A stretch of DNA of 64,000 bases from NCBI RefSeq assembly GCF_025526975.1, contig NW_026515691.1, positions 1-64,000 of the forward strand, given 5' to 3'. Positions 7,791-63,144 of the stretch are shown piece by piece (within the stretch, counting starts at the first letter, position 1; each line of letters begins with the position of its first letter). This stretch comes from Fimicolochytrium jonesii (taxonomy: Eukaryota). The notes under the pieces are model-generated. The model was not told where the DNA came from. It saw only the letters and a program-made list of their open reading frames with translations, and searched no databases. The position numbers and the translations under genes are program-made.

Positions 7791-9225
7791 ATGGCTGATA
7801 CACCGGTGTCTTCGGCCCTGCTATCACGGCAAGAGTCGTCTCCACCGGACCCATACAAAATGCACGACCCGTGGGCTGGGATAGGCGCAACCTTCGGCGA
7901 TAGCGTCCCGGCAGCGCCGGCTGTCGAAACCGTGGAGGGAATGTGGGCGGAGGCAGAGTCAGACCCTTGGAAGACCTTCTACGAAGAAGAACAGTCAGCT
8001 TCGTCTACCGACGCTGATAATGACGAACTTTGCGCGGAATATTCACCAAAGCGGAGGTTAGAACAAACGAAGGCTGTTCAGGGTGCCCTGCAGTCGGAGT
8101 TCAGCGGCGTGGGCCAGGTCGCGGCTGCAGCTGAGTTATTTGGTGCTGAGGACGCCACACCGCAGACGCCTCATAATAGTTATAGCAGAAGCTTCTCGGA
8201 ATCGCCGCTGCGAAAGCGATCTCTTGATGTGTGTGATAGGCAGCGAATGATCGCTGCAATAGGTCCAGCACCGCCGCTCATCGTCACCGAAGAAGCGCCA
8301 AATGCCGGGCCCATACCACCTAACGTTCGGCCCGACCACGTACCTTTGCGGAAGCTGTCGTTTGGCAAAGACTCTGGCGGTCCAACAACTGTCGGGGGAA
8401 CGACAAATCACGTTGCCTCAAACGTGCACACCATTCTTAAAACCGATACCCTGGCTGGCATTGCAATACAATATGACATTACAGTAACCGCTCTCAAGAA
8501 AGCAAATCGACTCTGGCACGAAGATGAGATCCGCTTTCGGGAACACGTCGTTATCCCGTCGCTCACTGGTTCGTCATCGCCATTAAAACCTATCCAATTG
8601 TCCCCCAGTAGAAGCGCGAAAACTGCGCATCAAAAACTGCGGACGGTGGCGGAAAACCAACCGGCCGAGAGCACCGAGGACCTGCTGAAACAGATTGATG
8701 CGGACCTGGTATCAGCGCTGAATGACCTGGGCCACGAGCACCCTTGGCGGGTTGGGGAGAAACACGTAGATAGAGTAGGGAGGGTACATACTTTGGGGGA
8801 CTGGGACTCGGTGTTGGACGCATCAGCTGCGGATTTGAGACGAGGTGTGAGAAACAGTGGCGGAAAGGCAAAGGAAGTTCGGCGGGGCCAGATGGGAAGC
8901 CTGGAGAAAGTGCTGGTTGGCGAGAGAAGATATCATCAAGCTCACGTGCCTTCGCCGACGACGGGCAGTGGCGGCGGGTCGTTGGGGAAGCTGAATGACT
9001 GGGTTTCTCAGTGAGTATGCACAAAGTCTCGTACAGGCTCGTCTCCTCTTCAAGGCTGACCACCCACTCTCGTCGCGAAGGAAACTCAACTCAATAATCC
9101 CTACCGGCAAAGAAGAGTACGCCTACCTCAGCCCGACCGATCCAGATTCCGGATTCTCGTCTAGCATCGGAACTCCGACAACCGTCAGGTCGAGAACCGC
9201 CACTCGAACGTCGTATTTTGATTAG
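7791..9225 (+). CDS. Intracellular LysM-domain protein
   Basis: LysM motif 'HTILKTDTLAGIAIQYDITVTALKKANRLW...IP'. An intron at 9011-9080 (GTGAGT...CTGAC...AAG) extends the ORF to TAG at 9225. No signal peptide is visible. Confidence 0.75.
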
Positions 9226-15157: not shown

Positions 15158-18100
15158 TCACCCCCTCCTTGAGCCACGGCGTCCGGATGTTGTTTTGATG
15201 TTGGCAGGCTTTGGTCGGGGTTTGTCGGGGTACTTTTGGTGGAACTGGGCAACAAGCTCTTGACATCGGGCAAGGTGTTCCACTGGCTCCCATGTGTTCT
15301 CCGAGCTTGGCCAACCCTGCCACTTGATGAGGTACTGAAGGTGCGTGCGTCGAATACGGGAGTCAAGAATGTCTTCCACAATCCATTCCTCCTGTCCTTC
15401 GACTTCTTCTGGTGGGGTGGGTTCTGGCTCAGTTCGCTCCGGAATGGTGAAACGTGGTTCAAGAAGGGAGACATGGAAGACGTTGTGAATTTTGTAGGAT
15501 GGGGGAAGCTTGAGGCGATATGTGACCGAGTTGATCTTCTCCGTGATTGTGAAGGGGCCAATCTTACGGTGATCAAGTTTCTGGGAAGGTCGGAGAGTCT
15601 TGAGATTCCGCTGTAAGAGCCAGACACTGTCCCCGGGTTTCATGTCTGGGCCAGGTGCCCTCTTAGCATCGGCAAAGCGCTTCATGCGTCCTTGGGCCTC
15701 CTTGAGCTCAGTGGCAAGCTGTTCATGGATTTCCTTGAGATGGTTGGCACGAGCTTCGGCTGCAGGATTAAGGGATTCGGTTGTGGTGGCGGAAGCCAGA
15801 CTGAATCGAGGATGGAACCCATAGTTGGCGTAGAAGGGGGTTGTCTGGGTGGCGGAGTGGATGGTGTTATTGTAAGAGAACTCAGCAGAAGACAAGAGTT
15901 CCTTCCAGTTATCTTGTTGATAGTTGCAAAAGCAGCGAAGGTATTGCTCAAGAATCTGATTGGTCCGCTCGGTTTGTCCATCGCTCTGGGGATGGAACGC
16001 CGATGAGAGGTTGACCTTGGTTCCCAGGAGAGCGAAGAGACGTTTCCAGAAGTGGGAGTTGAACTGTGGGCCACGGTCAGATACAATATCGTCGGGGAGT
16101 CCATGGAGCCGGATGACATGGTGCCAGATCAGATCTGCAGTTGACTCAGCGGTGGCAGTTTTCCTGCACGGTACAAAGTGCGCCATCTTGGTGAACCGGC
16201 AGATGACAACGAGCACAGAATCAACCCCATCACTGGCGGGTAGATCCGTGATGAAGTCCATGGAAATTGACCCCCAGGGGCGGTCAGGGACCTGCAGGGG
16301 TTGGAGGAGACCGTAGGGCTTGTGTCTGCTGGTCTTGGCTTGAGCACATACGTCGCAGGACCTGATGTAGGACTTGACAAAACGCCACTGGCTAGGCCAC
16401 CAGTAGTTGCGTGAGATGAGCTCCAGGGTCTTTGACATGCCGTAGTGTCCTGCCAAACGCGTGTCATGCATGTCCCGGCAGATCTCAGCACGGAGCTTGT
16501 TGGTGGGGACGTAGACAAGGTTGTCGTACAGCAGAACCCCATTTTCCTCGGAGAATCGCTTTATCCGTTCTTGGTCTTCTTGAGATTGCTGGGCAATGGG
16601 GGCCCTAAGCTGTCGCCGGATGGTTTGCGCAAACACATCGGATGCCAGGGCAGCTTTGATTTGGTCAAGGAGCGAGGAGTCCAGTGGGGTCAGATAAGTG
16701 GCGGCCAGGCGGAGATGGTCAGGGGTGAGGATCGTGGTTTCCTGGGAGCGGAATGCTTCTTCCCCCTCCCTTAGCTCGTATTCAGAGCGACGAGAGAGGG
16801 CGTCAGCTTGGTGTTGCTGGGTACCAGGGCGGTATGTGATGACAAAGTCAAAATCAGCAAAGAAGATTGACCAGCGGGATTGGCGGCGGTTGAGGGTACG
16901 GGTAGTCATGAAGTACTGGAGGTTCTTGTGGTCACAGTAAACGATGACCTTGTGGCGGGCACCAATGAGGTGGTGTCGCCATTGAGCAAATGAGTCTTGG
17001 ATAGCCAGGAGTTCCTTGTCGTAGATCTCATAGTTGATTTCCTCAGGAGTAAATTTGCGGGAGTGAAAGGCCACGGGGTGGAGTTGATCTGTGTCGTCGG
17101 GTTGAAGGAGGACGGCGCCAAGGGCAAAGTCGGAGGCATCGGATTCGACAATGAAGGGCTTGTCAGGGTCGGGGTGAGTCAGGATAGGTGCGGAGGTGAA
17201 GGCTTTCTTGAGGGTTTCAAAAGCTAGGTGTGCAGCGTGGGTCCATTTGAATGGCAAGTCTTTGCGAGTGAGCGTGGTCAGGGGTGCAACGATCGCAGAG
17301 TACCCTTGGATGAATCGCCGGTAGAAGTTGGCAAAACCAAGGAAGCGCTGGATGCCTTTGACATTCGTCGGGGGTTCCCATTCGGTAATGGCAGCCGTCT
17401 TCTTTGGGTCCATGGAAATGCCTTGCTGGGAGATGATAAACCCCAGGAACTCAACAGAGTCACGGTTGAATTCGCATTCTTCCGGTTTCGCATACAGCCC
17501 GTGCTGGCGGAGCCGTGAGAGCACCTCAGGGACGTGGTTGGGGTGGTTTTCTGGGTTTTTTGAGAAGATCAGAATGTCGTCAAGGTAGACCACAACAAAA
17601 ACGTCGAGAATGTCACGGAATATGTCGTTCATGAGGTGTTGGAATACTCCAGGGGCATTGGTGAGCCCAAACGGCATGACATTATACTCGAATAGGCCGT
17701 AGCGACATCGGAACGCTGTCTTCCATTCATCCCCTGGCCGGATCCGAAGAAGGTTGTAGGCTCCCCGGAGGTCAATCTTGGTGAGCTGGCGTGCCCCTCG
17801 AAGACGATCCATGATGCTGTTGATCAAGGGCAAGGGATAGCGATTCTTGATGGTGATATTGTTGAGTCCACCATAGTCGACGCACAGACGGAGGGAACCG
17901 TCCTTTTTCTTGACAAAGAGGACTGGGGCACCGGCGGGAGACTTGGAGTGCTTGATGAACCCCTTAGCTAGGTTCTCTTCAAGGTAGTCACAGAGTGCCT
18001 GCATTTCAGGCTCGCTGAGACTATAGATCGGGCCGAACGGTGGCTGTTTGCCCTCTTCTAAGTCGATGGGACAGTTGTAGGGTCGGTGCTCTGGGAGGGT

Positions 18101-19042
18101 ATCCGCGTTCTTCTTGGTGAAGACGTCCGCAAAATCTTGGTATTCTTCAGGTATGCTGGCCTTCGGATCTTTTGGAGGAGTGGTCGCCAGGGCTTGGGAA
18201 TCTGACTTGGTCGGATTGGCGTAGGCAATGAATGCCTGGTCATGCCTTGCCGCCACACGGAAAGCTGGGGCGCTGATAAACGATACGTGGATCGGTGTGG
18301 GTGCTGGGTCCAGTGTGTTGGGTGTCTGGGCTAGGGAGACTGAAATCTCGTCTTGATGGATACGGATCAGAGGTTCAGGGGTTTTTGAGGGCTTCGGGCT
18401 AGGTTCTGTTGGCAGGGCATCCCAGGAGGCGTATTGTCCAAAACCGCAATGGCAGCGGACGCAAAGAGTGCGAGTCTTCCAGTGTAGCTCCACATCATGG
18501 AGCTCAAACCAGGGAAGCCCCAGGATGATTGGCGCATGCGGGGAACATGTCACATGGAATACCACCTCCTCAAAATGGTCGTTGACCCACATGCCCAAAG
18601 GTTGGGTGTGATGGGTAATGGAGCCCGCATGGCTGGGACGTCCGTCAACCAGTTCAAGCGCAATGGGGTCCTCCTTCTTGACAAGTGGGATGCGGTGCTT
18701 GCGGGCATAACTTTTGTAGATGAAGCACGACATCGCACCGGTGTCGAGTAGTGCTGAAAGCTGAACTGGAGCTTGCTGGGCCGATATCTGCAGGGTAACA
18801 GGGTACTCGAATGGTGAGGATGGGCCCAAAGTCCGCATGGGTGGGGGTATCTCAGATAGGAGATTGACATTGTTGGTGGTCAGGAGAAGGGTGTTGCTGG
18901 AGATGCCAGGATCGGAGCAAGGTTTTGTGGCTTCTCCCTTGGCAGTACTGGCGTGGTGAGAAGGCCCAGGACAGGTGTTGCCCAGCTGCTCGGCCTTTAC
19001 TGCAGCTGGACTTGGGCAAAATCCTGGATGGGTGCAGGTTCC
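15158..19042 (-). CDS. pol: Pol polyprotein (protease, RT, RNase H, integrase, chromodomain), -1 frame relative to gag
   Basis: LLDTGA (PR); YLDD (RT); SDASDFALG/DKELLAI (RNase H); HHCC motif and D-D-E 'SMDFI..VSDRG..GQTERTN' (IN); C-terminal chromodomain 'YLIKWQGWPSSENTWEP'. The frame is open from 19042 (first ATG at 18838) and overlaps the end of gag. Confidence 0.95.
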   Translation of the reverse strand, partial: GTCTHPGFCPSPAAVKAEQLGNTCPGPSHHASTAKGEATKPCSDPGISSNTLLLTTNNVNLLSEIPPPMRTLGPSSPFEYPVTLQISAQQAPVQLSALLDTGAMSCFIYKSYARKHRIPLVKKEDPIALELVDGRPSHAGSITHHTQPLGMWVNDHFEEVVFHVTCSPHAPIILGLPWFELHDVELHWKTRTLCVRCHCGFGQYASWDALPTEPSPKPSKTPEPLIRIHQDEISVSLAQTPNTLDPAPTPIHVSFISAPAFRVAARHDQAFIAYANPTKSDSQALATTPPKDPKASIPEEYQDFADVFTKKNADTLPEHRPYNCPIDLEEGKQPPFGPIYSLSEPEMQALCDYLEENLAKGFIKHSKSPAGAPVLFVKKKDGSLRLCVDYGGLNNITIKNRYPLPLINSIMDRLRGARQLTKIDLRGAYNLLRIRPGDEWKTAFRCRYGLFEYNVMPFGLTNAPGVFQHLMNDIFRDILDVFVVVYLDDILIFSKNPENHPNHVPEVLSRLRQHGLYAKPEECEFNRDSVEFLGFIISQQGISMDPKKTAAITEWEPPTNVKGIQRFLGFANFYRRFIQGYSAIVAPLTTLTRKDLPFKWTHAAHLAFETLKKAFTSAPILTHPDPDKPFIVESDASDFALGAVLLQPDDTDQLHPVAFHSRKFTPEEINYEIYDKELLAIQDSFAQWRHHLIGARHKVIVYCDHKNLQYFMTTRTLNRRQSRWSIFFADFDFVITYRPGTQQHQADALSRRSEYELREGEEAFRSQETTILTPDHLRLAATYLTPLDSSLLDQIKAALASDVFAQTIRRQLRAPIAQQSQEDQERIKRFSEENGVLLYDNLVYVPTNKLRAEICRDMHDTRLAGHYGMSKTLELISRNYWWPSQWRFVKSYIRSCDVCAQAKTSRHKPYGLLQPLQVPDRPWGSISMDFITDLPASDGVDSVLVVICRFTKMAHFVPCRKTATAESTADLIWHHVIRLHGLPDDIVSDRGPQFNSHFWKRLFALLGTKVNLSSAFHPQSDGQTERTNQILEQYLRCFCNYQQDNWKELLSSAEFSYNNTIHSATQTTPFYANYGFHPRFSLASATTTESLNPAAEARANHLKEIHEQLATELKEAQGRMKRFADAKRAPGPDMKPGDSVWLLQRNLKTLRPSQKLDHRKIGPFTITEKINSVTYRLKLPPSYKIHNVFHVSLLEPRFTIPERTEPEPTPPEEVEGQEEWIVEDILDSRIRRTHLQYLIKWQGWPSSENTWEPVEHLARCQELVAQFHQKYPDKPRPKPANIKTTSGRRGSRRG

Positions 19043-19923
19043 TTAACCGCGACATTCGCCGTGCGTATCTTGTTCGGGCAGAGTTTGGCTATGTGGCCGG
19101 GTTTACCACAGTAGAGGCAAAGTTTGTTTGTGATGCGGTGTTGGCGCTCTAGCGGTGTGAGGGGTCCTCGCGGACGAGCAGCGTCAATGATCATAGGGTC
19201 GTCTGGGCGGTTGTCGGGGCTCATGAGGGTGGGGCTAGTGGTAACTGGCACATATGGCTGTCGGTTCCTGCTTCGCTCTAGACGGCGCTCAAACAATCGG
19301 TTGTCACATTGGATGGCCTGTTCCATCACGGTGTCGATTGAGGCGGTAGGGGGCATCGTGAGCATTAAGTCCTTGACGTCTTCTTTGAGGCCGCGACGGA
19401 AGGTGGCAATCAATGCCTGGTCATTCCACGACACATCGCATTGCAGCTGTCGGAATTCAGCTACATACTCTGTTGCTGCACGGGTTTGTCGAAGGTTCTG
19501 GAGCTTGTTTTCGGACGTGCGGATCCTGTCGCTGTCTCCAAAGACTGCTTGCATTTGCTGGATGAAATCATCCAGGTTCGTAAGGGAATGATGGTCTTGT
19601 TCGACAAGGGGCGCCAGCCAGGCCTGGGCGGTGCCAGTGAGGTAGGTGCCAATAGTTCGTATCTTGGTCTGATCGTTGGGGTAGCGCCTGGGTTGGAGGG
19701 CGAACATGAGCCGGATCTGGTTGAGGAACCCACGGAACTTGCTTCGGGTGCCATCAAATTTGTCTGGGAGACTGATTTTGGGTTCGGGGGCGTGGGTGGC
19801 AGGGGCAGTGGTCTGGGTTTGCGCTAGTTCGGCCTGTAGGGTGGTATTCTGCGCTCGAAGTTCGTCAATCGCATTGCACATGGCTTGCCAGGCTTCGGCC
19901 GTGAGGGGAAGGGCGTCGGACAT
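18997..19923 (-). CDS. gag: Gag (capsid plus CCHC zinc knuckle)
   Basis: 'PDKFDGTRSKFRGFLNQ', 'LRQT..ATEYVAEF', 'FRRGLKEDVKD' and zinc knuckle 'CLYCGKPGHIAKLC'. Confidence 0.95.
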   Translation of the reverse strand: MSDALPLTAEAWQAMCNAIDELRAQNTTLQAELAQTQTTAPATHAPEPKISLPDKFDGTRSKFRGFLNQIRLMFALQPRRYPNDQTKIRTIGTYLTGTAQAWLAPLVEQDHHSLTNLDDFIQQMQAVFGDSDRIRTSENKLQNLRQTRAATEYVAEFRQLQCDVSWNDQALIATFRRGLKEDVKDLMLTMPPTASIDTVMEQAIQCDNRLFERRLERSRNRQPYVPVTTSPTLMSPDNRPDDPMIIDAARPRGPLTPLERQHRITNKLCLYCGKPGHIAKLCPNKIRTANVAVKEPAPIQDFAQVQLQ

Positions 19924-19974
19924 GGTGATTTGGCGTGGAGGTACAGCGGCTGGGGGTTGTTGAGCAGATCAAAC

Positions 19975-20504
19975 TGTTATGAATGGGCGGAGCCGAGGGA
20001 AATAGAGGCGACTTGTGGTGCAGGTTGTTGACAGGTAATGGTATTCAGACCGAAACAAGAACTAGAACAAGACTAGGAAGAACTGGTGTCGATCTGCTGG
20101 GGGATCAGGAAGTGGGGAGCTCAGGGGAGGCGGCTATTTATGTTTTTCTGGGAAGGCTGGGGAAGCGTGGGGAAGCAGAAGGGTACGGAATGAGAGGGAA
20201 GCCAAGAGAAGCGCCAAGGGTGGGGAAGCATAGAAACAGAAGACTGGGGATGGGGTGGCTACGCTGAGGCTGTGGGCGGGTACGTGGGGAAGTATGGAGA
20301 AGGGTTTGTAAGCGCCGAGTGTTGGGAGGTGTGGCTACGTGCGGCTGCGTGGAGAAATGAAGGCAGTGGCAGGTGTGGGGTAGCGCGGCTGCGTGCGGCT
20401 GCGAGGTTTGGCAGATGTCAGGTTTTGACAGGGAATTGACATTGACTGACTGTTGGGATGCTGTCATGAGGTAAGCGCATGGTATGGACGCGTCGTCCAT
20501 AACA
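19975..20504 (-). repeat. 5' LTR (530 bp)
   Basis: Same termini as the 3' LTR, with a longer and different internal block around 20160-20232. Confidence 0.95.
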
Positions 20505-20589
20505 ATGATAGGGGCGCGTGGCGCAAGGTGTATTGTATTTGTTCCCGCAAGCGCTATAACTAAGAATGCTGTTTCTGCCGACTATATAT

Positions 20590-22164
20590 TCACGGATCTA
20601 CCCGCCAGTGATGGGGTTGATTCTGTGCTCGTTGTCATCTGCCGGTTCACCAAGATGGCGCACTTTGTACCGTGCAGGAAAACTGCCACCGCTGAGTCAA
20701 CTGCAGATCTGATCTGGCACCATGTCATCCGGCTCCATGGACTCCCCGACGATATTGTATCTGACCGTGGCCCACAGTTCAACTCCCACTTCTGGAAACG
20801 TCTCTTCGCTCTCCTGGGAACCAAGGTCAACCTCTCATCGGCGTTCCATCCCCAGAGCGATGGACAAACCGAGCGGACCAATCAGATTCTTGAGCAATAC
20901 CTTCGCTGCTTTTGCAACTATCAACAAGATAACTGGAAGGAACTCTTGTCTTCTGCTGAGTTCTCTTACAATAACACCATCCACTCCGCCACCCAGACAA
21001 CCCCCTTCTACGCCAACTATGGGTTCCATCCTCGATTCAGTCTGGCTTCCGCCACCACAACCGAATCCCTTAATCCTGCAGCCGAAGCTCGTGCCAACCA
21101 TCTCAAGGAAATCCATGAACAGCTTGCCACTGAGCTCAAGGAGGCCCAAGGACGCATGAAGCGCTTTGCCGATGCTAAGAGGGCACCTGGCCCAGACATG
21201 AAACCCGGGGACAGTGTCTGGCTCTTACAGCGGAATCTCAAGACTCTCCGACCTTCCCAGAAACTTGATCACCGTAAGATTGGCCCCTTCACAATCACGG
21301 AGAAGATCAACTCGGTCACATATCGCCTCAAGCTTCCCCCATCCTACAAAATTCACAACGTCTTCCATGTCTCCCTTCTTGAACCACGTTTCACCATTCC
21401 GGAGCGAACTGAGCCAGAACCCACCCCACCAGAAGAAGTCGAAGGACAGGAGGAATGGATTGTGGAAGACATTCTTGACTCCCGTATTCGACGCACGCAC
21501 CTTCAGTACCTCATCAAGTGGCAGGGTTGGCCAAGCTCGGAGAACACATGGGAGCCAGTGGAACACCTTGCCCGATGTCAAGAGCTTGTTGCCCAGTTCC
21601 ACCAAAAGTACCCCGACAAACCCCGACCAAAGCCTGCCAACATCAAAACAACATCCGGACGCCGTGGCTCAAGGAGGGGGTGATGTTATGGACGACGCGT
21701 CCATACCATGCGCTTACCTCATGACAGCATCCCAACAGTCAGTCAATGTCAATTCACTGTCAAAACCTGACATCTGCCAAACCTCGCAGCCGCACGCAGC
21801 CGCGCTACCCCACACCTGCCACTGCCTTCATTTCTCCACGCAGCCGCACGTAGCCACACCTCCCAACACTCGGCGCTTACAAACCCTTCTCCATACTTCC
21901 CCACGTACCCGCCCACAGCCTCAGCGTAGCCACCCCATCCCCAGTCTTCTGTTTCCATACTTCCCCACGTACTCGCCCACAGCCTTCCCAGAAAAACATA
22001 AATAGCCGCCTCCCCTGAGCTCCCCACTTCCTGATCCCCCAGCAGATCAACACCAGTTCTTCCTAGTCTTGTTCTAGTTCTTGTTTCGGTCTGAATACCA
22101 TTACCTGTCAACAACCTGCACCACAAGTCGCCTCTATTTCCATCGGCTCCGCCCATTCATAACA
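20590..22164 (+). mobile_element. 5'-truncated second copy of the same chromovirus (integrase core, chromodomain, PPT, LTR 21684-22164), inverted orientation
   Basis: Reverse complement of 14677-16251 (1575 bp) with the same integrase/chromodomain translation; no matching TSD at the left junction. Confidence 0.93.
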
Positions 22165-36500: not shown

Positions 36501-39500
36501 GCAGGGTCCGGGATCGATGTAACCTTTTTGGAGGCGCTACCGGACGATTTGCGTCAGGAGGTCATCAATCAACACCTCGGAGAACAACAGCGCTCTCAAC
36601 GAGCTACTACTGTTCCACCGACCATCAGCTCAGAATTCCTAGATGCTTTACCGGCGGACATTCGAGACGAGGTACTGGCGCAGGAGCGGAGAGAACGAGA
36701 GCGGCGCGAAAGAGCTAGTCAGCCAGCTGCGGCAACTACGAGTGCTGGGCCAATGGAAATAGATCCTGCCAGCTTTTTGGCGACATTGGATCCCTTACTA
36801 CGACAAAGTGTTCTGCAGGAATCAGACGACGGCTTTTTGGCCACTTTACCGCCAGGATTGGTTGCGGAAGCCAATGCTTTCCGAGGACATCGCGCTCGAA
36901 GCCGATTTGCAGCGTCACAGCAGGCGCGATCTTTAGCAGCTGGATTGTCAGCTACTGGTCAACCTTCCGCTCTACCGGGCAAACGGCCTGGTCATCGCGA
37001 AGCCGTCCACTTACTCGATAAAGCCGCTCTGACAACACTGATCCGTATGCTTTTCTTGCCAGAGAACGTTGGCAAACAGCTGATTCACAAGACGCTTGTC
37101 AATCTTTGCGAGAACTCCAAGACGCGATTGGATCTCATATCTCTCTTCCTGTCGATTTTGGTGGAGGGAAGCACGGACTTGGCGTCTGTGGATAGAAGTT
37201 TCGCGCAGATGTCCATCAGAGGGAAGGGGAAGTTCGCCCTTACACCGAAGAAAGGACCAGCTACTCCTACTCCGCCAACCACCGCGGGAACCCAGGGAGA
37301 AAACGGTCCAAATATCGTCGCGCAACGATGTTTGGAGGCCCTCACCCAGATGGTCACCTACAATGAGGGTGTGGCACGCTTGCTCCTGGTGGAGAATGAG
37401 ATGCTAGCCAACAACCCGTTCAAGACGCCGAAAAAAGGCAAGGGCAAAGAGAAGGTCACCGACAACAGATATCCCGTAGTCGTCCTCCTCAGCCTTTTGC
37501 AACGACCGACGTTTTTGAACAGCGCTGAGTTGATCGAACAGCTTATGCATATCATATCCATCATTCTGCGCTTGTCGACCATCATGACGCAAAAGGCGAA
37601 GGAAGCGAGAGCTGAACAAAAAGCCACGGACAGCACATCGCCGACTGTTCTTCAGGATGTCAGTTCAGTTCCAGCTAGTTCTTCAACGGCCCCTCCTCCA
37701 GAGGAACCTATTGTTCGAGTTGAAGCACAACGGCCAACCCAAACACCGAAGAAGCCTACCAACAGCAGTGTCACAGAATTCAAGCCACCCTCCATACCGG
37801 AGCAGTACGTGTCAGCTGTAGTCAAAGTCCTCACGACCGCAGTATGCTCTGGCAAAACATTCCAATACACACTGTCTGTGGTCCAACATCTATGTTCCTT
37901 AGCAAACAACCGTGAGATCATCACGCGCGAGCTCACCTCGGTCGCTCAGGGTCTCGGCGATGCTATGATCCCCGATGTCGATGAACTGATCGTCGTCCTT
38001 CAATCCGCCAGCACTGCAGTTGAGGTTCAGAGTGCAACTCTTGGGAAGTTCTCACATGCCGGTGCCCTTCAAGCAAAGTTGCTTCGAGTCTTGAAGACGA
38101 TGGACTTCATTCACACGAAACACGGGCGACACCAGGAGAAACAGGCAACGAATGCCCCTCGCCCCGCACCTTCAGCTGCAGATGCCACTCCAGGGACAGG
38201 AGAGGCGTCCGCCGTTCAATCAGATCAGCAGGAGTCGCCAGTGGCCTCCGAAAAAGACAAGGAGATCGACTTGGAAACCAAGTTGACAACCATGTACGAT
38301 TCCCTTCAGCTGCCGAAGCTCTGGCAGAGATTGGGAGCTTGCCTGAGCATCATCAATGAGAAAGATGCACTCATTCATGTCGCTACTGTACTCCTTCCGG
38401 CCATCGAGTCTTTCATGGTCGTTTCCAAGCCGTATGTGATGAGGAAGAAGCCAGTGGTTGCTGCCACGACGGTTCAGACACCAGCTTTGAGCAGGGTCCC
38501 TACGCATCAATCCGCGGATCTTGCGAAAAACAACGAGGAGCTTTTCGTTTCTTTCACAGAAGAGCATCGGAAGATCCTGAACACAATGGTCCGGAATAGC
38601 CCGTCGTTGATGAGTGGCTCTTTCTGCCTTTTGGTGCAAAACCCGAAAGTACTGGAATTCGATAACAAGCGCACGTACTTCAACCAGCAGCTGCATAAGC
38701 GAACAAGTCGGGACCACTACGGGAGTCTGCAGATTAACGTCCGGCGGCAGTACGTCTTCGAAGATTCCTATCACCAACTGCAAGGCAGATCCGGGGATGA
38801 GATCAAGTTCAGCAAGCTGAACGTACGGTTCTATGAAGAGGAAGGCGTGGATGCCGGCGGAGTCACCCGGGAATGGTTTTCGGTTCTCGCTCGTCAGATG
38901 TTCAACCCTGACTACGCTCTGTTCCGTCCCTCCGCCGTGGACAAGGTCACCTACCAGCCTAATCGACTCTCTGGTATTAACCCTGATCACTTGTTGTACT
39001 TCAAGTTTGTTGGTCGCGTCATTGGAAAGGCTATCTACGATGGAAGATTATTGGATGCATACTTTACCAGATCATTCTACAAATCGATGATCGGCGCCCA
39101 AGTTGACTACAAGGACATGGAGGCCGTTGACCCAGAGTTCCACAAAAGTCTTGAGTGGATTTTGCAGAACGACATCACCGACGTGCTTGATCTGACGTTC
39201 AGCACTGAGATCGACGAGTTCGGGAAGAAGCAGACAATTGATCTCAAACCGGATGGTCGTAACATCCCTGTGACGGAGCAGAATAAGCACGAATACGTCA
39301 AGCTCGTCGTGAACCAGCGTCTCGTTACTGCCATTCACTCGCAAATCGAGGCCTTCCTTGGCGGTTTCCACGACGTCATTCCCAAAGATCTCGTCAAAAT
39401 CTTCAATGAGCAAGAGTTGGAGCTATTGATCTCTGGCATGCCTGACATCGACATCGACGACTGGAAGAACAACACCGAGTACCGAAACTACACCGCTTCT

Positions 39501-39931
39501 AGTCCACAAGTTCAGTGGTTCTGGCGGGCTGTCCGAAGTTTCTCGCAGGAGGAGCGTGCCAAGCTGGTGCAATTCGCCACTGGCACCAGTAAAGTGCCCC
39601 TGGAAGGGTTTGCCGAAATCCAAGGGTCAAGCGGAACGCAAAAGTTCCAAATACATAAGGACTTCGCCTCTTCCGATCGATTACCCAGCGCCCACACCTG
39701 GTAAGTAAGGGTTTTCTTGGCAACCGCTATGGTCCATTAGACTAACTGCATTCATTTCAGTTTTAACCAATTGGACCTCCCTGCGTACGAAACATATGAC
39801 CAACTTCGCGCAAGTTTGCTACTAGCAATATCGGAAGGTGGCACTGGTACGTGTTCAGTCCGTTCCGTACCTTTTTGAAGATGAGGGTTCTAACACTTTA
39901 GCTGCTTTATCCAGGTTTCGGATTCGCTTGA
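27571..39931 (+). CDS. TOM1: HECT E3 ubiquitin ligase Tom1/HUWE1, multi-exon
   Basis: N-terminal 'DFHHWIPVLNRFDSIL' (DUF908), DUF913-like region, UBA domain 'LVDMGFPRAAAETAL', acidic region, UBM repeats 'FLEALPDDLRQEV', HECT 'EEGVDAGGVTREWF', catalytic 'SAHT(C)|FNQLDLP' split by an intron, terminal GFGFA-TGA. Confidence 0.97.
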
Positions 39932-43977: not shown

Positions 43978-44392
43978 AAGCCGTAGAGTATGGCGTGCGG
44001 TGTATGTGTAGGCCAGTTAGATAAATACATAGATTCTGCTCTCGTCCGACATCTCCTCGTTTAGGCCCAATAATATATCTTCTCAATTCTATGGCTGCAA
44101 AGCAGACAGAGCTCTACGCTCGTCGCATGGCGTCCCGTAGGCCGCGACGCGTGCCGCATCTGACTGACAGTGACCTTCTTCACAAGCCTCTGCGCCGTTC
44201 CCTTCGTTCCTTTCTTACTGCCTCCACCGCTTCAAAGACCAACATCTTCCCCATACGTGAGAATTTTTTTCTTTGACCAGCTGGGGATAGTCAGCTGAGC
44301 TACATGCGACCATCTCACGCTTGAACCGGTAATGCTGCGAGTGCCTTTGGGATCTGCCTGCCGCTGATGAGTTGAAATCTCTAGCTCCACGT

Positions 44393-44430
44393 GGGGTTAG
44401 GGTTAACCCTTTCGGGTTAGCCCTAACCCC
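44393..44430. repeat. Inverted telomere-like repeat hairpin
   Basis: GGGGTTAGGGTTAACCC-TTTC-GGGTTAGCCCTAACCCC: 17-bp arms with a single G/T mismatch. Confidence 0.85.
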
Positions 44431-47800: not shown

Positions 47801-48457
47801 GATGGCGGCAGCAACACCGTCACGTTCACAACCAGGCAGCTGGAGAGTATGATTCGGTTGGCTGAGGGACATGCTCGGATGAGGTATGGGAGGATGCTGG
47901 TATTTGGAAAGCGAGAGGCCTCAGTCCTGACCAAGTACTTCTCTTTCAGGCTGTCTTTGACTGTAGACAGGATTGATGTCGACGAAGCCCATCGGTGAGT
48001 GGTAAATTGCGGCGGATCTCTCTCCTCTGCTTCCTTACTCACAGACCCCTCCGTTTTAGCTTGGTCCACACCGCCCTTCAGACCGCCGCCATCGACCCCA
48101 AAACCGGATTGATCGATTTAGATCTCGTCAACACGGGCATCAGCTCCCGATCGCGACGGGTGCATGCGGACAAGCGAGCCGCTTTGCGAGCGCTTCTTCA
48201 GAACATGGACCGCGTTAGCGTCAAGTGGGTTGAGGCTTTCCGCATGTTTGGGGACCAGTCCGATGAGGTAAGACACTGCCGCATTTCACTGGCAAATGAG
48301 GGTCGCCTCAACTCATCTCACCCGCGTTGTTCTTCCCCAGCACATCCCTGAATACGAATTCAACCAGCTACTGGACGAGCTGTCGGATGAGGGTTCGGTG
48401 CACGTTACAGGGCGTAGCAATGCTGAAAAGATGATTCGCAAGACGGGAGGGATGTGA
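44830..48457 (+). CDS. MCM4: DNA replication licensing factor MCM4, multi-exon
   Basis: S/T-P-rich N-terminus, 'VIWGTTVN', zinc finger, '[18 protein letters not shown]', Walker A '[11 protein letters not shown]', 'IDEFDKM', arginine finger 'LLSRFD', '[18 protein letters not shown]'. Confidence 0.95.
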
Positions 48458-48809
48458 GATGAGTTCGGCAGAGCGAGGTCAACTTGGCGTTGTATGAAAG
48501 ATTTCGGTGTTGGACAGCATTTGTGTATATCTGAGTTTTCAAGACCTGGCTTCCTTGTAATATATTCATGCAGGCGTAGATGCTTTGTTTGGGATACCTA
48601 CACATTTGCTATCGGACAGACGCCAAGAGAAAGTTTTCCTTTTTTGAACTACGCTTGGCTGGGAAGATATCATTTTCATTCACTACCTACTATGTACAAT
48701 GGCCTTCGGCCTCAATAAACGACTCCTACGCAAAAAACTCTTCCCGCAATACTATCGGCTCAGAAAGGCACTTCGGACGCGCTATGCGTTGAACGGCTCA
48801 TCAAGCCAA

Positions 48810-49667
48810 CTATCTACCATACGCCTGGCTTCTCTCGCCATCTTCCTGATGCTCTGATCGATGTTGCTCTCCTTCAGCACCCTGTTCGTGGTGACTGGCG
48901 CGGAGGTCCTCATCCGCTCTTCTTGTAACGTTGATGCCACCTACGTAGATTTTTGACCCATGAGCAATGAGTCTAAATTTTCCAGACATATCCGACGCTA
49001 CTTACGTTGTGCCACCTTGATCTTTGCGATATTGGGGCCTTCCCCTTTTGCCTTGTAATAACTCAGCTTTCCCTCGACAATAACATATGCCCTACAAAAC
49101 CAAGGAACGGTTCCTCAATAACCGAAGTAAACTGTCTCCCACGTTAGAATAAAGGGTATAAGTAGTCCGTACCCCTTCTCAAAGTCTTGAGGCAGCTCTC
49201 CCTCGAGCTGGACCTGGTGCCACAGGAGGACGTTCTTCCATTCCCCCGTCTCCGGATTCTTCTTGCCCTCCCTGGTCACAACAGGAAAGTTCCACCTACC
49301 CGTCCCGTCTTTGAACTCCACTCTCCTCGCATCATCACCGACGCGACCGTGTACGATGACCTTCTGGTAATCGGCTGCGGGCAATTCTAGTCGTTAGAGT
49401 CGGTGGAAGCATAGGACTGAAAGTGTCCTTTTCACATGGAAGATGGAAGGGTCTCATGGACGCGGAACTTACGACGGAGGAAAGCGGCAGGAGTTGTGCT
49501 TGTGAATGACTAGATCGAAGAAGATAGAAAGACAAAAGGTTCGCCCGGTAAGCAAGATGGTTTCATCTGGCCGCGAGAGATGACCTGTCACTGGCCGGGA
49601 GACCCTCCACACTCACCCTTGCTTGACGCAGGACAGGACAGGCCCGGCGAGCCTGAGTGAGGAACAT
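48810..49667 (-). CDS. RIM1: Mitochondrial single-stranded DNA-binding protein (SSB OB-fold), multi-exon
   Basis: Presequence 'MFLTQARRACPVLRQAR'; SSB fold 'KVIVHGRVGDD...WHQVQ...FEKG|AYVIVEGKLSY'; TAG at 48810-48812. Confidence 0.75.
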
Positions 49668-50109
49668 TCTTATCCAAGCTGACAGCTTCAGATAAATGCG
49701 ATACGGTGAGAGGACGCTTGCTGCTCGCTCGGTTGGAAGTTGATGAGTTGTGGGGGGCTGGGAGGGAAGATTGTTGACGTGAGCAGCGGGAGACTCCTTG
49801 CGACGTGCGGATGTCCGAACTGACTGCTGCGCCACTTGCCCGTCTGGGGTCTACATTTACAACACGACATGCTGGTGCACGGCTTTCCATCTGCGCTCTC
49901 TCATCAGCGCACTTCCAAAGCTGGCTCCCAGGGCACATCACCTGCAAGTCTCTCGCCAAAAAGGTCTCTCTGTGGGAAGATAGGAAACGAACGGCTCGCA
50001 ACTCCGGCGCCGCACACGCAGTACGTACACAAATCCCCGCTAGCGGTCATAGATGCTGCCTCTGGTTTCGTTCTCGGAATGGAGCAGAGCGCGTGCATCC
50101 CGCGGAATA

Positions 50110-50949
50110 GCGGGCAGGGCAGTCTGACCACTACGGCTTTCACCCCAGACGGAGATATGGAAAGCTAGTAGGCTGTGTGTGACAGCCAAATAGCTAGGGT
50201 CTTCCTTTCTGGTGTGCCTCCTGTCCCATCCGGACTGTCGAGGCTCTGAGAGGATACCCCGAGTAGATGGCTGCTCACGCTCACCGAAACACTTTTCTCA
50301 CCTGATGGGAGAACCTAACCCTAAGTGTGTGTCGGGGCGTTGAGAATCGTGTTCGAGCAACCTGGCTGGAGACGTCTGTTTGTGCACGTCTGCGTTCGCG
50401 CAGATTGCTTTGCTGAACAGAGCCGTCTCTCTGCCTGCTCACATTGATGCTCCGCTTTGACGATGGCTTTGGTCATCGCCCTCATGCCCAGTATTTTACG
50501 GCTGTCTTTGACTGGGTTTCTGCTTGGGCAAACGCCCAACAGAACAAAAAAACTACAAGACGGTCTTAGGTCGCTGCCCGTACCTGTGTTGATATGTGTG
50601 TGCGGCTTGCCATTGCGTGCTTTGATCTTTCCTATCGAAATCGGGCTGGGGACGTACATCACCCCACGGAGACGCCTTGACAGCGGATGAAGACGATCTC
50701 TGCCATGCCTAGAAGCTGCAACCTTCGTTGGAGTTGGGGGAAAGTTTCGCAACAAAGGAGGGAAAACCGTCGGTAACCCTCGGGTAGGCCGTGCGTTAAA
50801 GGTTCGTCCTTGCTATTCCCTCCCGACGCGACATTGCTGCCTTTTTGGAGGTGTGCAAATTCCCTCGGCTTATACCAAACAGCGCTGCAAGTGGCGATAA
50901 TGGGCTTGGCATCGAGACTGTCTGGAACGTCTGTCTGGAGGACTTGCGG
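50110..50949 (+). ncRNA. Candidate telomerase RNA (TER/TR); ends approximate
   Basis: Template CCTAACCCTAA (50314-50324) directly after a hairpin (50295-50313); H-type pseudoknot (50487-50565); enclosing helix 50117-50129 / 50569-50579; CR4/5-like three-way junction (50757-50823) with P6.1 AAGG-UUCGU-CCUU; no credible protein ORF. Confidence 0.8.
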
Positions 50950-51280
50950 GTAAGTGGAGTGTGTTGTGGGATCATGCGCTCCCCTGCCCAAATTTTTTAC
51001 CTCCTGACTTGCAAGATGTCGGTCTTTGAACTGAGTATCAGTGGGATTCTGGTCTTTCAGAACCCCTCGAACTCACTTCAAAGGTCCCTCTGCAGTTTGC
51101 GGGAAATAAGAATTAATGCAATACTCCTTGGGATTGCCAGGGTGCGCCAAAGGCGGAGATTTGTCGGTCAAATTGTCGGTCACAACTGTCGATGCTATTC
51201 CCCAGCTTAGCAATATATGCAAAATGTGGCAAACGTAGGTACAAAGTGAACGAGGTTTGCGGCACCCCATGTTGCAAGTG

Positions 51281-52252
51281 CTACCTCCATGGCCGCCGTT
51301 CACTCGGTGGCCGTGCTTTTGTACTGGTCATGGAATGTGGTCTCGCCCGCATCGCAATCTCGCTGGGATGCCAATGCGTAAAACCACTCTTCCAGCATAG
51401 CCTCCCCTTCCCTCCTGTCAACCTATCCGCATCGTATCTCGAATCGACGACACCAGCGTCCCTCGTTCTCCATCGACCACCAGGCCTCGATCTCGAGGTA
51501 GCCAGCACATCGTCTTCGGCAAGAAAATCGGTAAGCGTGCAGCTAAAGTCGACCTCGGCTTTCGTCGAAGTACGCAGATATGGTCGACGGCCATCTACCG
51601 TGGGTGGTGGGCATCCGCGCTTCGGTATTGGACGCGAGTGCGGGTCGCGCTTTTCGTTATGCGAGCGTCGTGCCTGTGCTAGTCTTTTGGTGAAGTTGTG
51701 CAGTGCCAGCTGCGGTCGTGGGATTTGGGTTTGAGATGGAGGGACCGTTGTTCTGCCGCGCTTTGTGGGTTGCGGCGGTGGTCGGTGCGCTGTAGGGTCT
51801 TTCGGCTCAGCTTTCGTGGTCGGTCGCCCGTGATAAGCTCTCGTGTAGATGTTGCTCGAAGGTGCAGGTTTGCGCGTATACGACGCAGGGATCTTTGGCC
51901 CCTTCGACGAACACCCTTCCCTCCAGCGCCTTCTTCCCCTCTCCGCATCCTCATCGCCTTCCATCCCCACCCGAGCGTTCCGCATGCTCCCTCCCGCCTC
52001 CGCATCCCGCACATCCACACAGCCCCCCGCCACCGTCGAAATCACACCATCAATCTCCCTGTCACTCGACGCCGAAATCAGCCCTAATACCTCGGCGAAC
52101 AGGTTCTCGAGCTCGTCGCGCATGACTGTTATTCGTCCCGCTACACGCTCGGCATCGTCTAGCATTCGTAGGTATTCGGCTTCTGAGCCTTGCGGGATAT
52201 TGGAGGATTCGGATATCGAGTGTAGTTCTGGAATGTCTGATGTGTCTGACAT
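51281..52252 (-). CDS. Hypothetical protein (N-terminal coiled coil, basic low-complexity C-terminus)
   Basis: 323-aa ATG-initiated ORF, divergent from MIX23. No recognisable domain; exon structure uncertain. Confidence 0.45.
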   Translation of the reverse strand: MSDTSDIPELHSISESSNIPQGSEAEYLRMLDDAERVAGRITVMRDELENLFAEVLGLISASSDREIDGVISTVAGGCVDVRDAEAGGSMRNARVGMEGDEDAERGRRRWREGCSSKGPKIPASYTRKPAPSSNIYTRAYHGRPTTKAEPKDPTAHRPPPQPTKRGRTTVPPSQTQIPRPQLALHNFTKRLAQARRSHNEKRDPHSRPIPKRGCPPPTVDGRRPYLRTSTKAEVDFSCTLTDFLAEDDVLATSRSRPGGRWRTRDAGVVDSRYDADRLTGGKGRLCWKSGFTHWHPSEIAMRARPHSMTSTKARPPSERRPWR

Positions 52253-52586
52253 GGTTGATTGCTTTGTGCCTGGCGCACGACTGTTTTTGCAACGAGGCTA
52301 TTAGCAATCTTGAATTGCGAGCAAGATGAAACAGACGGAGACCTACAGAACATGTATGGATCGATAGAGAGCCCCAGGCTCCTGGTTCTTGCAAAAAGCA
52401 AAGCAGCCATGATTGAGGCCGCCGCCATGTTCGACATATTTCCGGACGGCCGACGCTTACGTTAACGCGTTCGAGGCTTGCAACATCATCCACTCGGAAG
52501 TTCCGATGTTCGGTAAGCTCCTATTCCCCGGCCAGTAGATCTAGACCTGCTACTCTGTGTAAATCTTCGTCCCTAAAACAACCGCA

Positions 52587-54058: not shown

Positions 54059-56481
54059 TCACTCCATAGTGAGATCAACCACATCCGCGCCTTTCTCCGT
54101 CTTCACTCTAACCCAATCATCAGCGCCGATATACGGCCCAACGGGCTGCTGGGCAGCACCCGCACCAACTTCATCTTCATCTTCTGAAAAGATCTCAATG
54201 ACGTCGACCTCGGTCCCCGTTTGCGAGGTGCCCTCGTCCGTTCCGACCTGATCGCTCCGGTCGTCGGATTCATCATCGTCATCCGCTTCTTCTCCCTCGG
54301 AGCTGGTCGGGTCAAATTCCTCCTCATCTTCCTCCTCCTCCTCCTCTTCCATTTCGCCTTCATCGTCCGAGTCGGCATTCGAACCGGAGTCGTCCGAAGA
54401 GCTCATGTCGTTAATCGGTATTGAGAAATCCGGCCGAATAGGGAGCCGATCCAACTGCTCCCTCTCCTCGTCGGCTAATTCCGAGTCTCTACCGTTCCAA
54501 AACCGGCCTCGAGCAGCCCGTTTCTGGGCCAACACAGCCGGCGAAACCCAAGTATTGGCGCCGTGTTTCCCGTTCTGCTGTTTGTCAGTCCCCTTTGCCT
54601 TGTGAGGAAGTTTGCATTTTCTTTTCGAACACTTTCCGTTAGCAGCAAATTCTGGACACTCGCACACATGTCGGAGCGGACATTGGCGTCCAGCTTGACA
54701 GAAACCGTCCATCGCGAAGGATGGGCAAACCGCTGTATCCAGGCTGTGCTTCACGTGAAGATAAGGGCATTCCTCGCTCTTGGTGCATCTGCCCCGTTCA
54801 AAGTGGACACAGATTGGCATGTTGTACTCCGTGGGTGAGTGCGAGAGTTTGCAAGGCGATTCCGTGCAACTTCCCTTGAGAAAGGCGGGACATACTGCCA
54901 ACCGTGCCGGATCGTGAATGTAAGGACATGATGCTCCTTTCTGACATTGACCTAGAATTATCGGGTTGCGAAGGTTGGAAGATGGATGAGAAAAAAATCA
55001 GTCGTCGATAAGCTCTGCAAGTTTGTCAGTACCAAAGCGATAGAATTGGCAATGCTTTTTCAATCGGGAATGGTGCGATTTCGACGTTTTATGCGCGCTC
55101 CTGGTGCGATTGGATGAAGATAATAAGTACTACATGGCGACAGCGGAGTAGCATCGGCTGATCCATGTTTGCTGTCCATATGGCCGAAGTCAGAAGCGAT
55201 CAAAAGGGAAACAAACTTGTCAGGAGTTCGCAGCGCTCTCGTTAACACGAGGTTTCCGCTCTTAGCTCGGCTGAACGATTGTCCGTTCAAAATTAATCGT
55301 TTTGGTGTTTTTATCTTTGACCTGTCGGCTGCGAAAAGAACGTGGAAACGGCGGATACGCCTCAATGTTGAAGAAACTATTCGCTGCGCCGTCGAGAAAA
55401 GTAATGGTAATCGATGCCTCACCATCTGTAACTCGGACCAACTTATTTCCAGATGCTCCCCCACGAATGAAGGCAACGCCGTTGATGCTGAGGCCTTTGA
55501 TAGCACGTGGGGTCTCTGTTTTTGCAAATAATAGTATCATCAGCGTTGTAAGCGACTTGGGAGACGCCAGTAAAGTCCAGCGTCCTCACCAGGATGAGAC
55601 GCAGAGGGCGATGTAGTGACAATCAGTTTCCGTCCGTCCGCACTCTTTTGATAGGACTTGCCATTGGACACGATCAAGGTGCGATGTTTTGAGGATTTAT
55701 GAAACGTAACCGATTTCGCCGTTATGGGTGCTCTGCGACGGGTACTCAACGTCAATACTCGCCATCCTCGAGAGCAGCTTGAGATGCTCTCGTTGCTCAC
55801 CCTTTGGATGGAGCACGCTTACTCAGACTTTCGGCCGCTGCTGCAGATTGAAGTAAGGCGGGAATTTGGCAAACTTGCGGCGAATATGACGAGACTTCTC
55901 CGAAATGCCCGACCATCGAAAATATACAAGCCCATCTCGGCATTGCTGAACGTACCACTTCCAACGCGATAAAGCTTGTTCCCTTTCTTAACGTATGATG
56001 CCTGTGGCAGTCCACTTCCCAGTGTTGAATTCTCACTGGTCGCACTGCCAGTACTCCGGTTGACAGACATGGCCGTGCCACTATTTTGATTAATCAGTTT
56101 GCGGTGATGGGATTTCACTGGCAGCGATGCCGTTTGCGTGCTTGTCCGCGCTACTGGGGCAAAACTCCGACTTGTCGTGACGGTTCTCCCACTGCTCCCG
56201 TTTATCAGTGTTTTGTTGTGAGGCCCCCGAGCACGACCTGCCGGAATCGGCGCTTTCGTATAGGGGTGGAACCCATGTTCACAATGCGTTCGTGCTATGG
56301 GCTTGACGGGGCCATTCAGAGCACCTGGTTCAGGTGAATCCACAGAGTGTGCATGAGAAACCCCATCCCTCCCTCTTTCGCCCATGTCTGAAGTCGCACC
56401 AGTCTTTATGCCTGAACGCAACGAGAGGCTCAACCTACCTGCAAGCAGCGATATCTGTCTGAGTAACTCGCTATCGTCCAT
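54059..56481 (-). CDS. ZC3H3: CCCH zinc-finger protein ZC3H3/Red5-like, multi-exon
   Basis: N-terminal 'MDDSELLRQISLLAG', tandem CCCH fingers ('CPYIHDPARLAVCPAFLKGSC...CKLSH', 'CVHFERGRC..CPYLH', 'CPSFAMDGFC..CPLRH') and an acidic tail. Confidence 0.8.
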
Positions 56482-63116: not shown

Positions 63117-63144
63117 GGGGGGGGGGGGGGGGGGGGGGGGGGGG
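63117..63144. repeat. Poly-G tract (28 nt) upstream of the Mei2-like gene
   Basis: Read directly from the sequence. Confidence 0.9.

What the first reader, a model, noticed from the sequence alone, without database searches (positions are those of the whole stretch)
50295..50324. Template with an abutting template-boundary hairpin
TTCTC-A-CC-TGAT-GG-GAGAA forms a 7-bp stem with one bulge that ends immediately before CCTAACCCTAA. A helix directly 5' of the template is the fungal-type template boundary element that stops reverse transcription. This is the longest uninterrupted + strand CCCTAA-type run I noticed in the window.
Basis: partly seen in the sequence, partly recalled or inferred. Interest (0 to 1): 0.8.

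Follow-up and report, generated by a model that had tools for sequence, protein, structure and literature searches.

The report
Complete chytrid telomerase RNA gene candidate
The hairpin and telomere-repeat stretch are real and sit inside a roughly 1 kb sequence of a chytrid fungus that also carries motifs predicted to fold into the other working parts of a telomerase RNA, in the right order, so this is likely the telomerase RNA gene of an early-branching fungal group for which our literature searches found none described.

Summary
Observation confirmed: hairpin 50295-50313 abuts CCTAACCCTAA 50314-50324. The hairpin alone is weak evidence (29% of random positions have one), but the same strand then carries, in canonical order: an H-type pseudoknot with U-rich loop, A-run and inserted hairpin (50486-50565); a core-enclosing helix 3 nt later; and a CR4/5 three-way junction with P6.1 (50757-50823) that fits the published vertebrate/fungal consensus (linker A, A-U closing pair, NUNGN loop, UG). 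Each strict descriptor hits once in 128 kb, here. The 1012-nt region folds at z -7.3. The window's TOM1 gene encodes exactly a Fimicolochytrium jonesii protein, so this is a chytrid. No chytrid telomerase RNA turned up in seven paper searches. Verdict: likely telomerase RNA gene (0.88), with the hairpin as template boundary element. Missing: no homologue, no covariation, no RNA data; this species' telomere repeat and TERT were not checked; an orphan gene model overlaps CR4/5 antisense. A strong GTAAGT donor at the predicted 3' end raises the possibility that spliceosomal 3' cleavage is older than Ascomycota (about 0.3).

The parts
49940..50951 (+). Predicted extent of the folded RNA (5' end uncertain; 3' end at 50949 or near 51005)
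   Evidence: Closing helix 49940-49950/50941-50951, probability 0.91-0.99, kept in a 49150-51100 fold; z -7.3 against 61 shuffles
50009..50020 (+). Outer core-enclosing helix, 5' strand (pairs with 50595-50606, 12 bp)
   Evidence: probability 0.99
50117..50129 (+). Inner core-enclosing helix, 5' strand (pairs with 50569-50579; 7+4 bp)
   Evidence: probability 0.95-1.0; 3' strand starts 3 nt after the pseudoknot
50295..50313 (+). Template-adjacent hairpin, predicted template boundary element
50314..50324 (+). Template region CCTAACCCTAA (would give TTAGGGTTAGG); 9, 10 or 11 nt used
50331..50477 (+). Long irregular hairpin and short hairpin between template and pseudoknot
50486..50565 (+). Predicted H-type pseudoknot: PK1 50486-50492/50511-50517, U-rich loop 50493-50499, PK2 50500-50510/50556-50565, inserted hairpin 50518-50544, A-run 50546-50552
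   Evidence: only strict descriptor hit in 128 kb; 3 hits in 48 Mb of resampled DNA; PK1 and PK2 compete in pseudoknot-free folding, 0.47 and 0.28
50569..50606 (+). 3' strands of the two core-enclosing helices
50757..50823 (+). Predicted CR4/5 three-way junction: P5 50757-50764/50816-50823, bulged P6 50768-50795, linker A 50798, P6.1 50799-50811 with loop UUCGU, UG at 50811-50812
   Evidence: unconstrained fold, probability 0.93-0.99 for P5, upper P6, P6.1; consensus from PMC3950677 hits only here on the + strand
50950..50955 (+). GTAAGT 5' splice-site-like motif at the end of the closing helix; possible spliceosomal cleavage point
   Evidence: best-scoring GT in 49000-51600, 10.4 bits, inside the range of 16 true donors
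50991..50999 (+). AATTTTTTA: Sm-site-like U run (alternative 3' end signal, or intron U tract)
   Evidence: matches the putative U. maydis site AUUUUU (PMC9564094), lacks the G of the yeast consensus
51004..51041 (+). Branch-site-like CTGAC (51004-51008); next AGs 8, 28 and 34 nt after the branch A, first YAG at 51039-51041
   Evidence: the same CTGAC is the antisense of the 3' splice site of an annotated - strand intron

Best explanation
This is likely the telomerase RNA gene of a spizellomycetalean chytrid, and the hairpin at 50295-50313 is predicted to be its template boundary element. Shown by sequence: template repeat, abutting hairpin, and the complementary segments of pseudoknot, core-enclosing helix and CR4/5 in canonical order on one strand. 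Inferred mechanism: the chromosome's TTAGGG 3' end pairs with the 3' part of the template, TERT copies towards the 5' end and stops where single-stranded RNA runs out at the hairpin (at 50316, or up to 50314), then realigns for the next repeat; the pseudoknot forms U.A-U triples between the U loop and PK2; the core-enclosing helix holds template and pseudoknot together; CR4/5, at the tip of a second long arm, binds the TERT RNA-binding domain and activates the enzyme. Given that it is the telomerase RNA, the hairpin sets the boundary with about 0.85 odds. The 3' end is open: spliceosomal first-step cleavage at 50949/50950 (about 0.35), an Sm-protected end near 51005 (about 0.35), other (0.3).
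For: Order and strand: strict pseudoknot and CR4/5 descriptors each hit 1 time in 128 kb, both within 500 nt downstream of the template; 0 of the 5 other telomere-type runs of 8 nt or more have the pseudoknot or the strict CR4/5 downstream. Background in 376 resampled windows: 3 pseudoknots, 205 CR4/5; joint chance per template 6e-7 strict, 5e-4 loose. A P6.1 signature taken only from PMC3950677 occurs at 0.0043 per kb and hits 50798 (+) and 42091 (-). The pentaloop equals that of medaka. P6.1 shares the outer AAAG...CTTG with the ten Aspergillus-group sequences of a published alignment, with the inner pair exchanged (C-G there, G-C here; by eye). An extra helix in the pseudoknot loop is described for Pezizomycotina. 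Fold: z -7.3; -4.8 SD against 122 other 1012-nt tiles, most extreme other -2.5. Length fits 900-2425 nt of fungal TERs. Other chytrids (Batrachochytrium) end in TTAGGG. Template, boundary and pseudoknot lie outside the annotated gene model.
Against: So no covariation. Rfam gives no telomerase match even at E 10. The pseudoknot descriptor and the RNA ends were chosen after seeing the locus; an unselected tile over the region scores -2.4, no better than the best other tile, and the reverse strand also folds well (-3.1). An annotated 514-aa gene model on the - strand overlaps CR4/5 and the 3' end. The P6.1 loop is 5 nt here but 4 nt in the Aspergillus alignment. The predicted 50289-50294/50323-50328 pairing covers two template bases. 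Telomere repeat, TERT and uniqueness in this genome were not tested (no genome held).
Confidence: 0.88

Rival explanations
1. The 11-mer is an interstitial telo-box, a DNA site for a Myb-type TTAGGG-binding factor in a regulatory region, and the hairpin and folds are incidental.
For: The window holds a cluster of such boxes upstream of the MCM gene (44394-44429), so these runs are commoner than shuffles predict; TTAGGG-binding transcription factors are known in fungi (PMC7857110); hairpins abut 29% of random positions.
Against: Does not explain pseudoknot, core-enclosing helix and CR4/5 in order on one strand; the boxes at 44394-44429 have no pseudoknot downstream.
Confidence: 0.04
2. The region belongs to the - strand gene model (514 aa) as last exon and 3' UTR; the + strand folds are its mirror image.
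For: Annotated protein maps to 52428-50662 with plausible introns; last exon codon score -0.04, between real (0.09 +/- 0.07) and non-coding (-0.14 +/- 0.08), so not excluded; reverse strand folds at -3.1 SD.
Against: The protein has no relative among 1.84 billion representatives, 1 hit = itself; only aa 29-135 scores clearly coding, aa 136-355 scores non-coding; it stops short of template and pseudoknot; + strand fold is 49 kcal/mol more stable; all TER motifs read on +. A hypothetical ORF overlapping a TER is reported for Penicillium.
Confidence: 0.04
3. A structured non-coding RNA related to telomerase RNA but not the active one (paralogue, decayed copy or other triple-helix RNA).
For: A TER-like pseudoknot without template also occurs in a viral contig (L054); genome-wide uniqueness untested.
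Against: All core elements are intact and base-paired; no decay visible.
Confidence: 0.04

Closest known systems
Pezizomycotina telomerase RNA (Neurospora crassa TER, Qi et al., PMC3592445; Aspergillus TERs, Kuprys et al., PMC3603654)
   Same: Template core TAACCCTAA, template-adjacent boundary helix, two core-enclosing helices, pseudoknot PK1/PK2 with inserted PK2.1, compact junction with 4-bp P6.1; outer P6.1 bases shared with Aspergillus.
   Different: About 1 kb against about 2 kb; template to pseudoknot 161 nt against about 800 (the latter from the deletion listed); very short boundary hairpin; canonical GTAAGT donor instead of AUAAGU; U run lies after, not before, the donor.
Vertebrate CR4/5 (medaka, PMC3950677)
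   Same: Linker A, A-U closing pair, UG after P6.1, conserved U and G in the loop, identical UUCGU pentaloop.
   Different: Vertebrates use a P1-type boundary and a box H/ACA 3' domain; here a local hairpin, and no ACA box after a hairpin downstream.
Schizosaccharomyces pombe TER1 (Kannan et al., PMC4299874)
   Same: About 1.2 kb, CR4/5 with P6.1, canonical donor at the 3' end, long branch-to-AG distance as the block of step two (34 nt to the first YAG here against 14-27 in 13 TOM1 introns).
   Different: TER1 has an Sm site overlapping the donor and a branch site fully complementary to U2; here no U-rich site precedes the donor and the branch site is ordinary.
Ustilago maydis and Malassezia TERs (PMC9564094, PMC12506658)
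   Same: Same two core domains; putative Sm site AUUUUU near the 3' end; an upstream protein gene on the same strand (here MCM, stop 48455-48457).
   Different: Those come from an mRNA 3' UTR and have no terminal donor; here about 1.5 kb and two AATAAA motifs separate the MCM stop from the fold, so an independent gene is likelier (untested).

Membership tests
Telomerase RNA (opisthokont type) | Template of more than one and at most two telomeric repeats | tested here: met
   11 nt, 1.8 repeats of CCCTAA; criterion from PMC3603654
Telomerase RNA (opisthokont type) | Template matches the organism's own telomere repeat | not testable with these tools
   No genome held; Batrachochytrium, another chytrid order, uses TTAGGG
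Telomerase RNA (opisthokont type) | Template single-stranded | tested here: inconclusive
   9 of 11 nt unpaired; last 2 paired at probability 0.91, about 2 kcal/mol to open
Telomerase RNA (opisthokont type) | Boundary helix directly 5' of the template | tested here: met
   50295-50313, probability 0.88-0.97; function untested
Telomerase RNA (opisthokont type) | H-type pseudoknot with U-rich loop and A-rich strand able to form U.A-U triples | tested here: met
   complementarity only, register of the triples unresolved
Telomerase RNA (opisthokont type) | Core-enclosing helix right after the pseudoknot | tested here: met
   50569-50579 with 50117-50129, 3 nt after PK2
Telomerase RNA (opisthokont type) | CR4/5 junction: P5, P6, linker A, 4-bp P6.1 with NUNGN loop, UG | tested here: met
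Telomerase RNA (opisthokont type) | Helices supported by covariation in orthologues | tested here: inconclusive
   no orthologue found; one exchanged P6.1 pair against Aspergillus by eye
Telomerase RNA (opisthokont type) | Expressed, bound by TERT, directs repeat synthesis | not testable with these tools
   needs RNA data and bench work
Rfam telomerase families | Score above a curated model's threshold | tested here: not met
   0 matches at gathering; none telomerase-related at E up to 10
Animal box H/ACA telomerase RNA | Hairpin - H box - hairpin - ACA at the 3' end | tested here: not met
   ANANNA at 50872 is followed at once by ACA (50879); next ACA at 51182
Ascomycete spliceosome-cleaved TER | Terminal intron: donor at the mature 3' end, branch site, feature blocking step two | tested here: inconclusive
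   donor 50950, branch-like 51004-51008, 34 nt to first YAG; the branch-like motif doubles as antisense splice site of the gene model; true end unknown
Ascomycete spliceosome-cleaved TER | Sm site just upstream of the donor | tested here: not met
   AT4-6 runs in 49800-51300 only at 50493 and 50992; a T5 run at 50842 lies in a predicted hairpin 100 nt upstream
Pol III-type TER | Internal A/B boxes or TATA promoter | tested here: not met
   no A or B box in 49500-51400, no TATAWA in 48500-50300; consensus patterns recalled

The most novel reading that the evidence does not exclude
This is the first complete telomerase RNA from a fungus outside Dikarya, and its 3' end is cut by first-step-only splicing at the GTAAGT donor without an Sm site. 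Spliceosomal 3' end formation would then be ancestral in Fungi and lost in basidiomycetes, against the 2025 proposal that it is exclusive to Ascomycota (PMC12506658).
Probability: 0.3. Interest if true: 0.82.

Novelty: new member of a known kind. Interest (0 to 1): 0.72.

Why it matters
Telomerase RNAs are described for animals and for Ascomycota and some Basidiomycota; a 2018 paper states none was known from the basal fungal divisions (PMC6115765), and searches showed none since, apart from an unconfirmed ciliate-like candidate in Lichtheimia (PMC4133162). A chytrid RNA with template, local boundary hairpin, pseudoknot and vertebrate-like CR4/5 fills the gap between animals and Dikarya, supports a local boundary helix plus CR4/5 as the ancestral opisthokont core, gives a seed for covariance-model searches across early fungi, and makes the question of the ancestral 3' end pathway (H/ACA, Sm, spliceosome or mRNA-derived) directly testable.

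Tried and rejected
Rfam, three scans: nothing relevant. No genome held for the window. Sequencing runs: none was listed, no RNA holder listed; this says nothing about expression. Four viral scans served only to gauge chance rates. Earlier notes of this scan: no look-alike stretch, nothing for this genome, no synteny note. The Aspergillus TER promoter motif with one mismatch is at chance level, 83 against 85 expected: rejected as a guide to the 5' end. H/ACA end and Pol III boxes: not met. No tRNA. Five single ORFs in or beside the locus are not in the protein collection as such. No paper on chytrid TERT surfaced. Qi et al. 2015 on fungal TER 3' ends is not held and the supplements of PMC3592445 could not be read; both may bear on the 3' end reading and on nucleotide conservation.

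Full report
OBSERVATION. The sequence is as described: hairpin 50295-50313, then CCTAACCCTAA 50314-50324. The exact 11-mer is expected 0.01 times per window, but such runs are enriched in this DNA: a 12-nt run on the - strand and a 9-nt run on the + strand lie together at 44394-44429. The hairpin alone is ordinary: 29% of 3000 random positions have a helix of 5 bp or more ending at the preceding base; the 42-nt stretch has z -1.56.

ORGANISM AND SETTING. The HECT region at 36753-39704 is 100% identical to a Fimicolochytrium jonesii protein, next best 90-92% in Geranomyces, Spizellomyces, Thoreauomyces and Powellomyces; the window encodes that 3786-aa protein exactly through 16 introns. So the host is a spizellomycetalean chytrid. 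The locus lies downstream of an MCM helicase gene (+ strand, Pfam; stop 48455-48457; MCM4 by my reading, not tested). An annotated orphan gene model on the - strand (514 aa) has exons 52428-52345, 52267-51287, 51207-51079 and 51006-50662: it overlaps CR4/5 and the 3' end antisense, but not template, boundary or pseudoknot. It has no relative among 1.84 billion representatives; only residues 29-135 have clearly coding codon use, 136-355 look non-coding, and the overlapping last exon is inconclusive (-0.04; real 0.09 +/- 0.07, non-coding -0.14 +/- 0.08).

ANATOMY (+ strand). 161 nt after the template comes a pseudoknot: PK1 50486-50492/50511-50517, loop ATTTTAC, PK2 50500-50510/50556-50565 (9 contiguous pairs), a hairpin 50518-50544 inserted in the second loop, and seven A at 50546-50552. 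RNAfold cannot form pseudoknots and splits PK1 and PK2 0.47/0.28. Three bases after PK2 a helix pairs back to 50117-50129, enclosing template and pseudoknot; a 12-bp helix 50009-50020/50595-50606 lies outside it. 191 nt after the pseudoknot is a three-way junction that folds without constraints: P5 8 bp, bulged P6, P6.1 AAGG-TTCGT-CCTT (the 73-nt piece has z -2.17). An 11-bp helix joins 49940-49950 to 50941-50951 and persists when the ends are changed. The whole looks like two long arms, one tipped by the template core, one by CR4/5.

IS IT MORE THAN CHANCE. Strict descriptors for pseudoknot and CR4/5 each hit once in both strands of the window, at this locus. In 376 Markov-resampled windows (48 Mb) they hit 3 and 205 times; the joint chance of both behind a given template is 6e-7, or 5e-4 with loosened descriptors, for which the real window has 7 CR4/5 hits and one pseudoknot site. 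The pseudoknot descriptor was written after I saw the locus, so take the loose figure. A signature taken only from PMC3950677 (linker A, A-U closing pair, NUNGN, UG) hits 50798 on + and 42091 on -, at a background of 0.0043 per kb. The 1012-nt region folds at -425 kcal/mol, z -7.3 against 61 shuffles, reverse strand -376; against 122 other tiles it is -4.8 SD (most extreme other -2.5), but its ends were chosen from the fold, an unselected tile gives -2.4, and the reverse strand gives -3.1. 200-nt tiles show z -2.2 to -3.1 at 50100-50499 and 50900-51099, with -3.8 on the reverse strand of the latter.

RELATIVES. None found. No genome is held. A CR4/5 pattern gave 0 metagenome hits. Covariation is therefore untested. 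By eye, P6.1 shares the outer AAAG and CTTG with the ten Aspergillus-group TERs in a published alignment, with the inner pair reversed and a loop one base longer (PMC3603654 supplement 1); their templates follow a GGGAA helix end plus two bases, close to GAGAA plus CC here. Rfam has no match.

MECHANISM. Shown: the motifs and their complementarity. Inferred from the N. crassa, medaka and general TER literature: primer alignment on the 3' part of the template, copying to the hairpin, stop by loss of single-stranded RNA or TERT contact at the helix base, realignment; triple helix in the pseudoknot; CR4/5 binding to TERT. The N. crassa template equals 50316-50324 and Aspergillus boundaries sit mostly two bases off the template, so a 9-nt working template with CC as in-register spacer is as likely as 11 nt; either gives TTAGGG repeats. 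A predicted pairing 50289-50294/50323-50328 covers the last two template bases and costs about 2 kcal/mol to open; it may be a folding artefact or a free-RNA state that TERT opens.

3' END. GTAAGT at 50950 is the best donor-like site in 49000-51600 (10.4 bits; 16 true donors 5.7-11.3; 5 GTAAGT on the + strand of the window) and lies at the end of the closing helix. A branch-like CTGAC follows at 51004; AGs come 8, 28 and 34 nt after its A, the first YAG at 34, against 14-27 in the 13 of 16 TOM1 introns with a recognisable branch site. That recalls S. pombe TER1, where a long branch-to-AG distance blocks step two (PMC4299874). Against: no U-rich Sm site before the donor; the CTGAC is also the antisense of the gene model's 3' splice site; the U run at 50992-50998 fits the putative U. 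maydis Sm site and could mark an end near 51005 instead. H/ACA and Pol III layouts are not met. The 5' end is not fixed.

LITERATURE. Seen: PMC3592445 parts 2-4 of 7 (supplements unreadable); PMC4299874 part 1 of 5 and passages; PMC3603654 passages, sections 23-24, supplement 1 (part 3 and passages) and supplement 2; passages of PMC3950677, PMC8480181, PMC4993307, PMC9564094, PMC12506658, PMC6115765, PMC7857110, PMC4133162, PMC11797018, PMC9926174; the rest as search listings. Searches gave no chytrid TER; the library lacks most subscription papers. PMC6115765 (2018) says none was known from basal divisions; PMC4133162 offers an unconfirmed ciliate-like candidate in Lichtheimia; PMC12506658 proposes that spliceosomal 3' processing is exclusive to Ascomycota. 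Three unchecked notes of this scan propose chytrid TER candidates in other genomes; they are leads, not support, and share no detectable sequence with this locus.

VERDICT. Likely the telomerase RNA gene of this chytrid (0.88), a new member of a known kind from an undescribed branch, with every core domain identifiable. Proof needs orthologues, RNA ends and activity.

Noticed in passing
window 44394-44429 and 44143-44151: Two telomere-type boxes in opposite orientation (12 nt on -, 9 nt on +) and a CGCGACGCG/ACGCGT element upstream of the MCM gene; possible Myb-type and G1/S cell-cycle promoter sites.
   Followed up: partly
window 50662-52428 (-): Orphan 514-aa gene model; only residues 29-135 look coding, so the model probably chains a short real ORF to non-coding frames.
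   Followed up: partly
window 15158-21683: Ty3/gypsy retrotransposon with chromodomain integrase (gag 18997-19923, pol 15158-18838, - strand) and an inverted integrase/chromodomain piece at 20484-21683 (+).
   Followed up: no
L054 about 389-470 (+): Viral contig with a telomerase-like H-type pseudoknot (10-bp stem, U loop, A run) just before an ORF start and no template; could be a structured leader or stability element.
   Followed up: no
window 49156-49163 and 49337-49575: TATA-like GTATAAGT followed by a pyrimidine-rich tract, and several CGCG motifs; the transcript could start several hundred bases upstream of the folded region.
   Followed up: no
window 42091 (-): A second match to the literature P6.1 signature without the rest of the junction; expected by chance.
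   Followed up: partly
window 63117-63144: Run of 28 G.
   Followed up: no
window 7791-9014, 9416-12109, 54059-54820: LysM-domain, PPR-repeat and CCCH zinc-finger genes.
   Followed up: no
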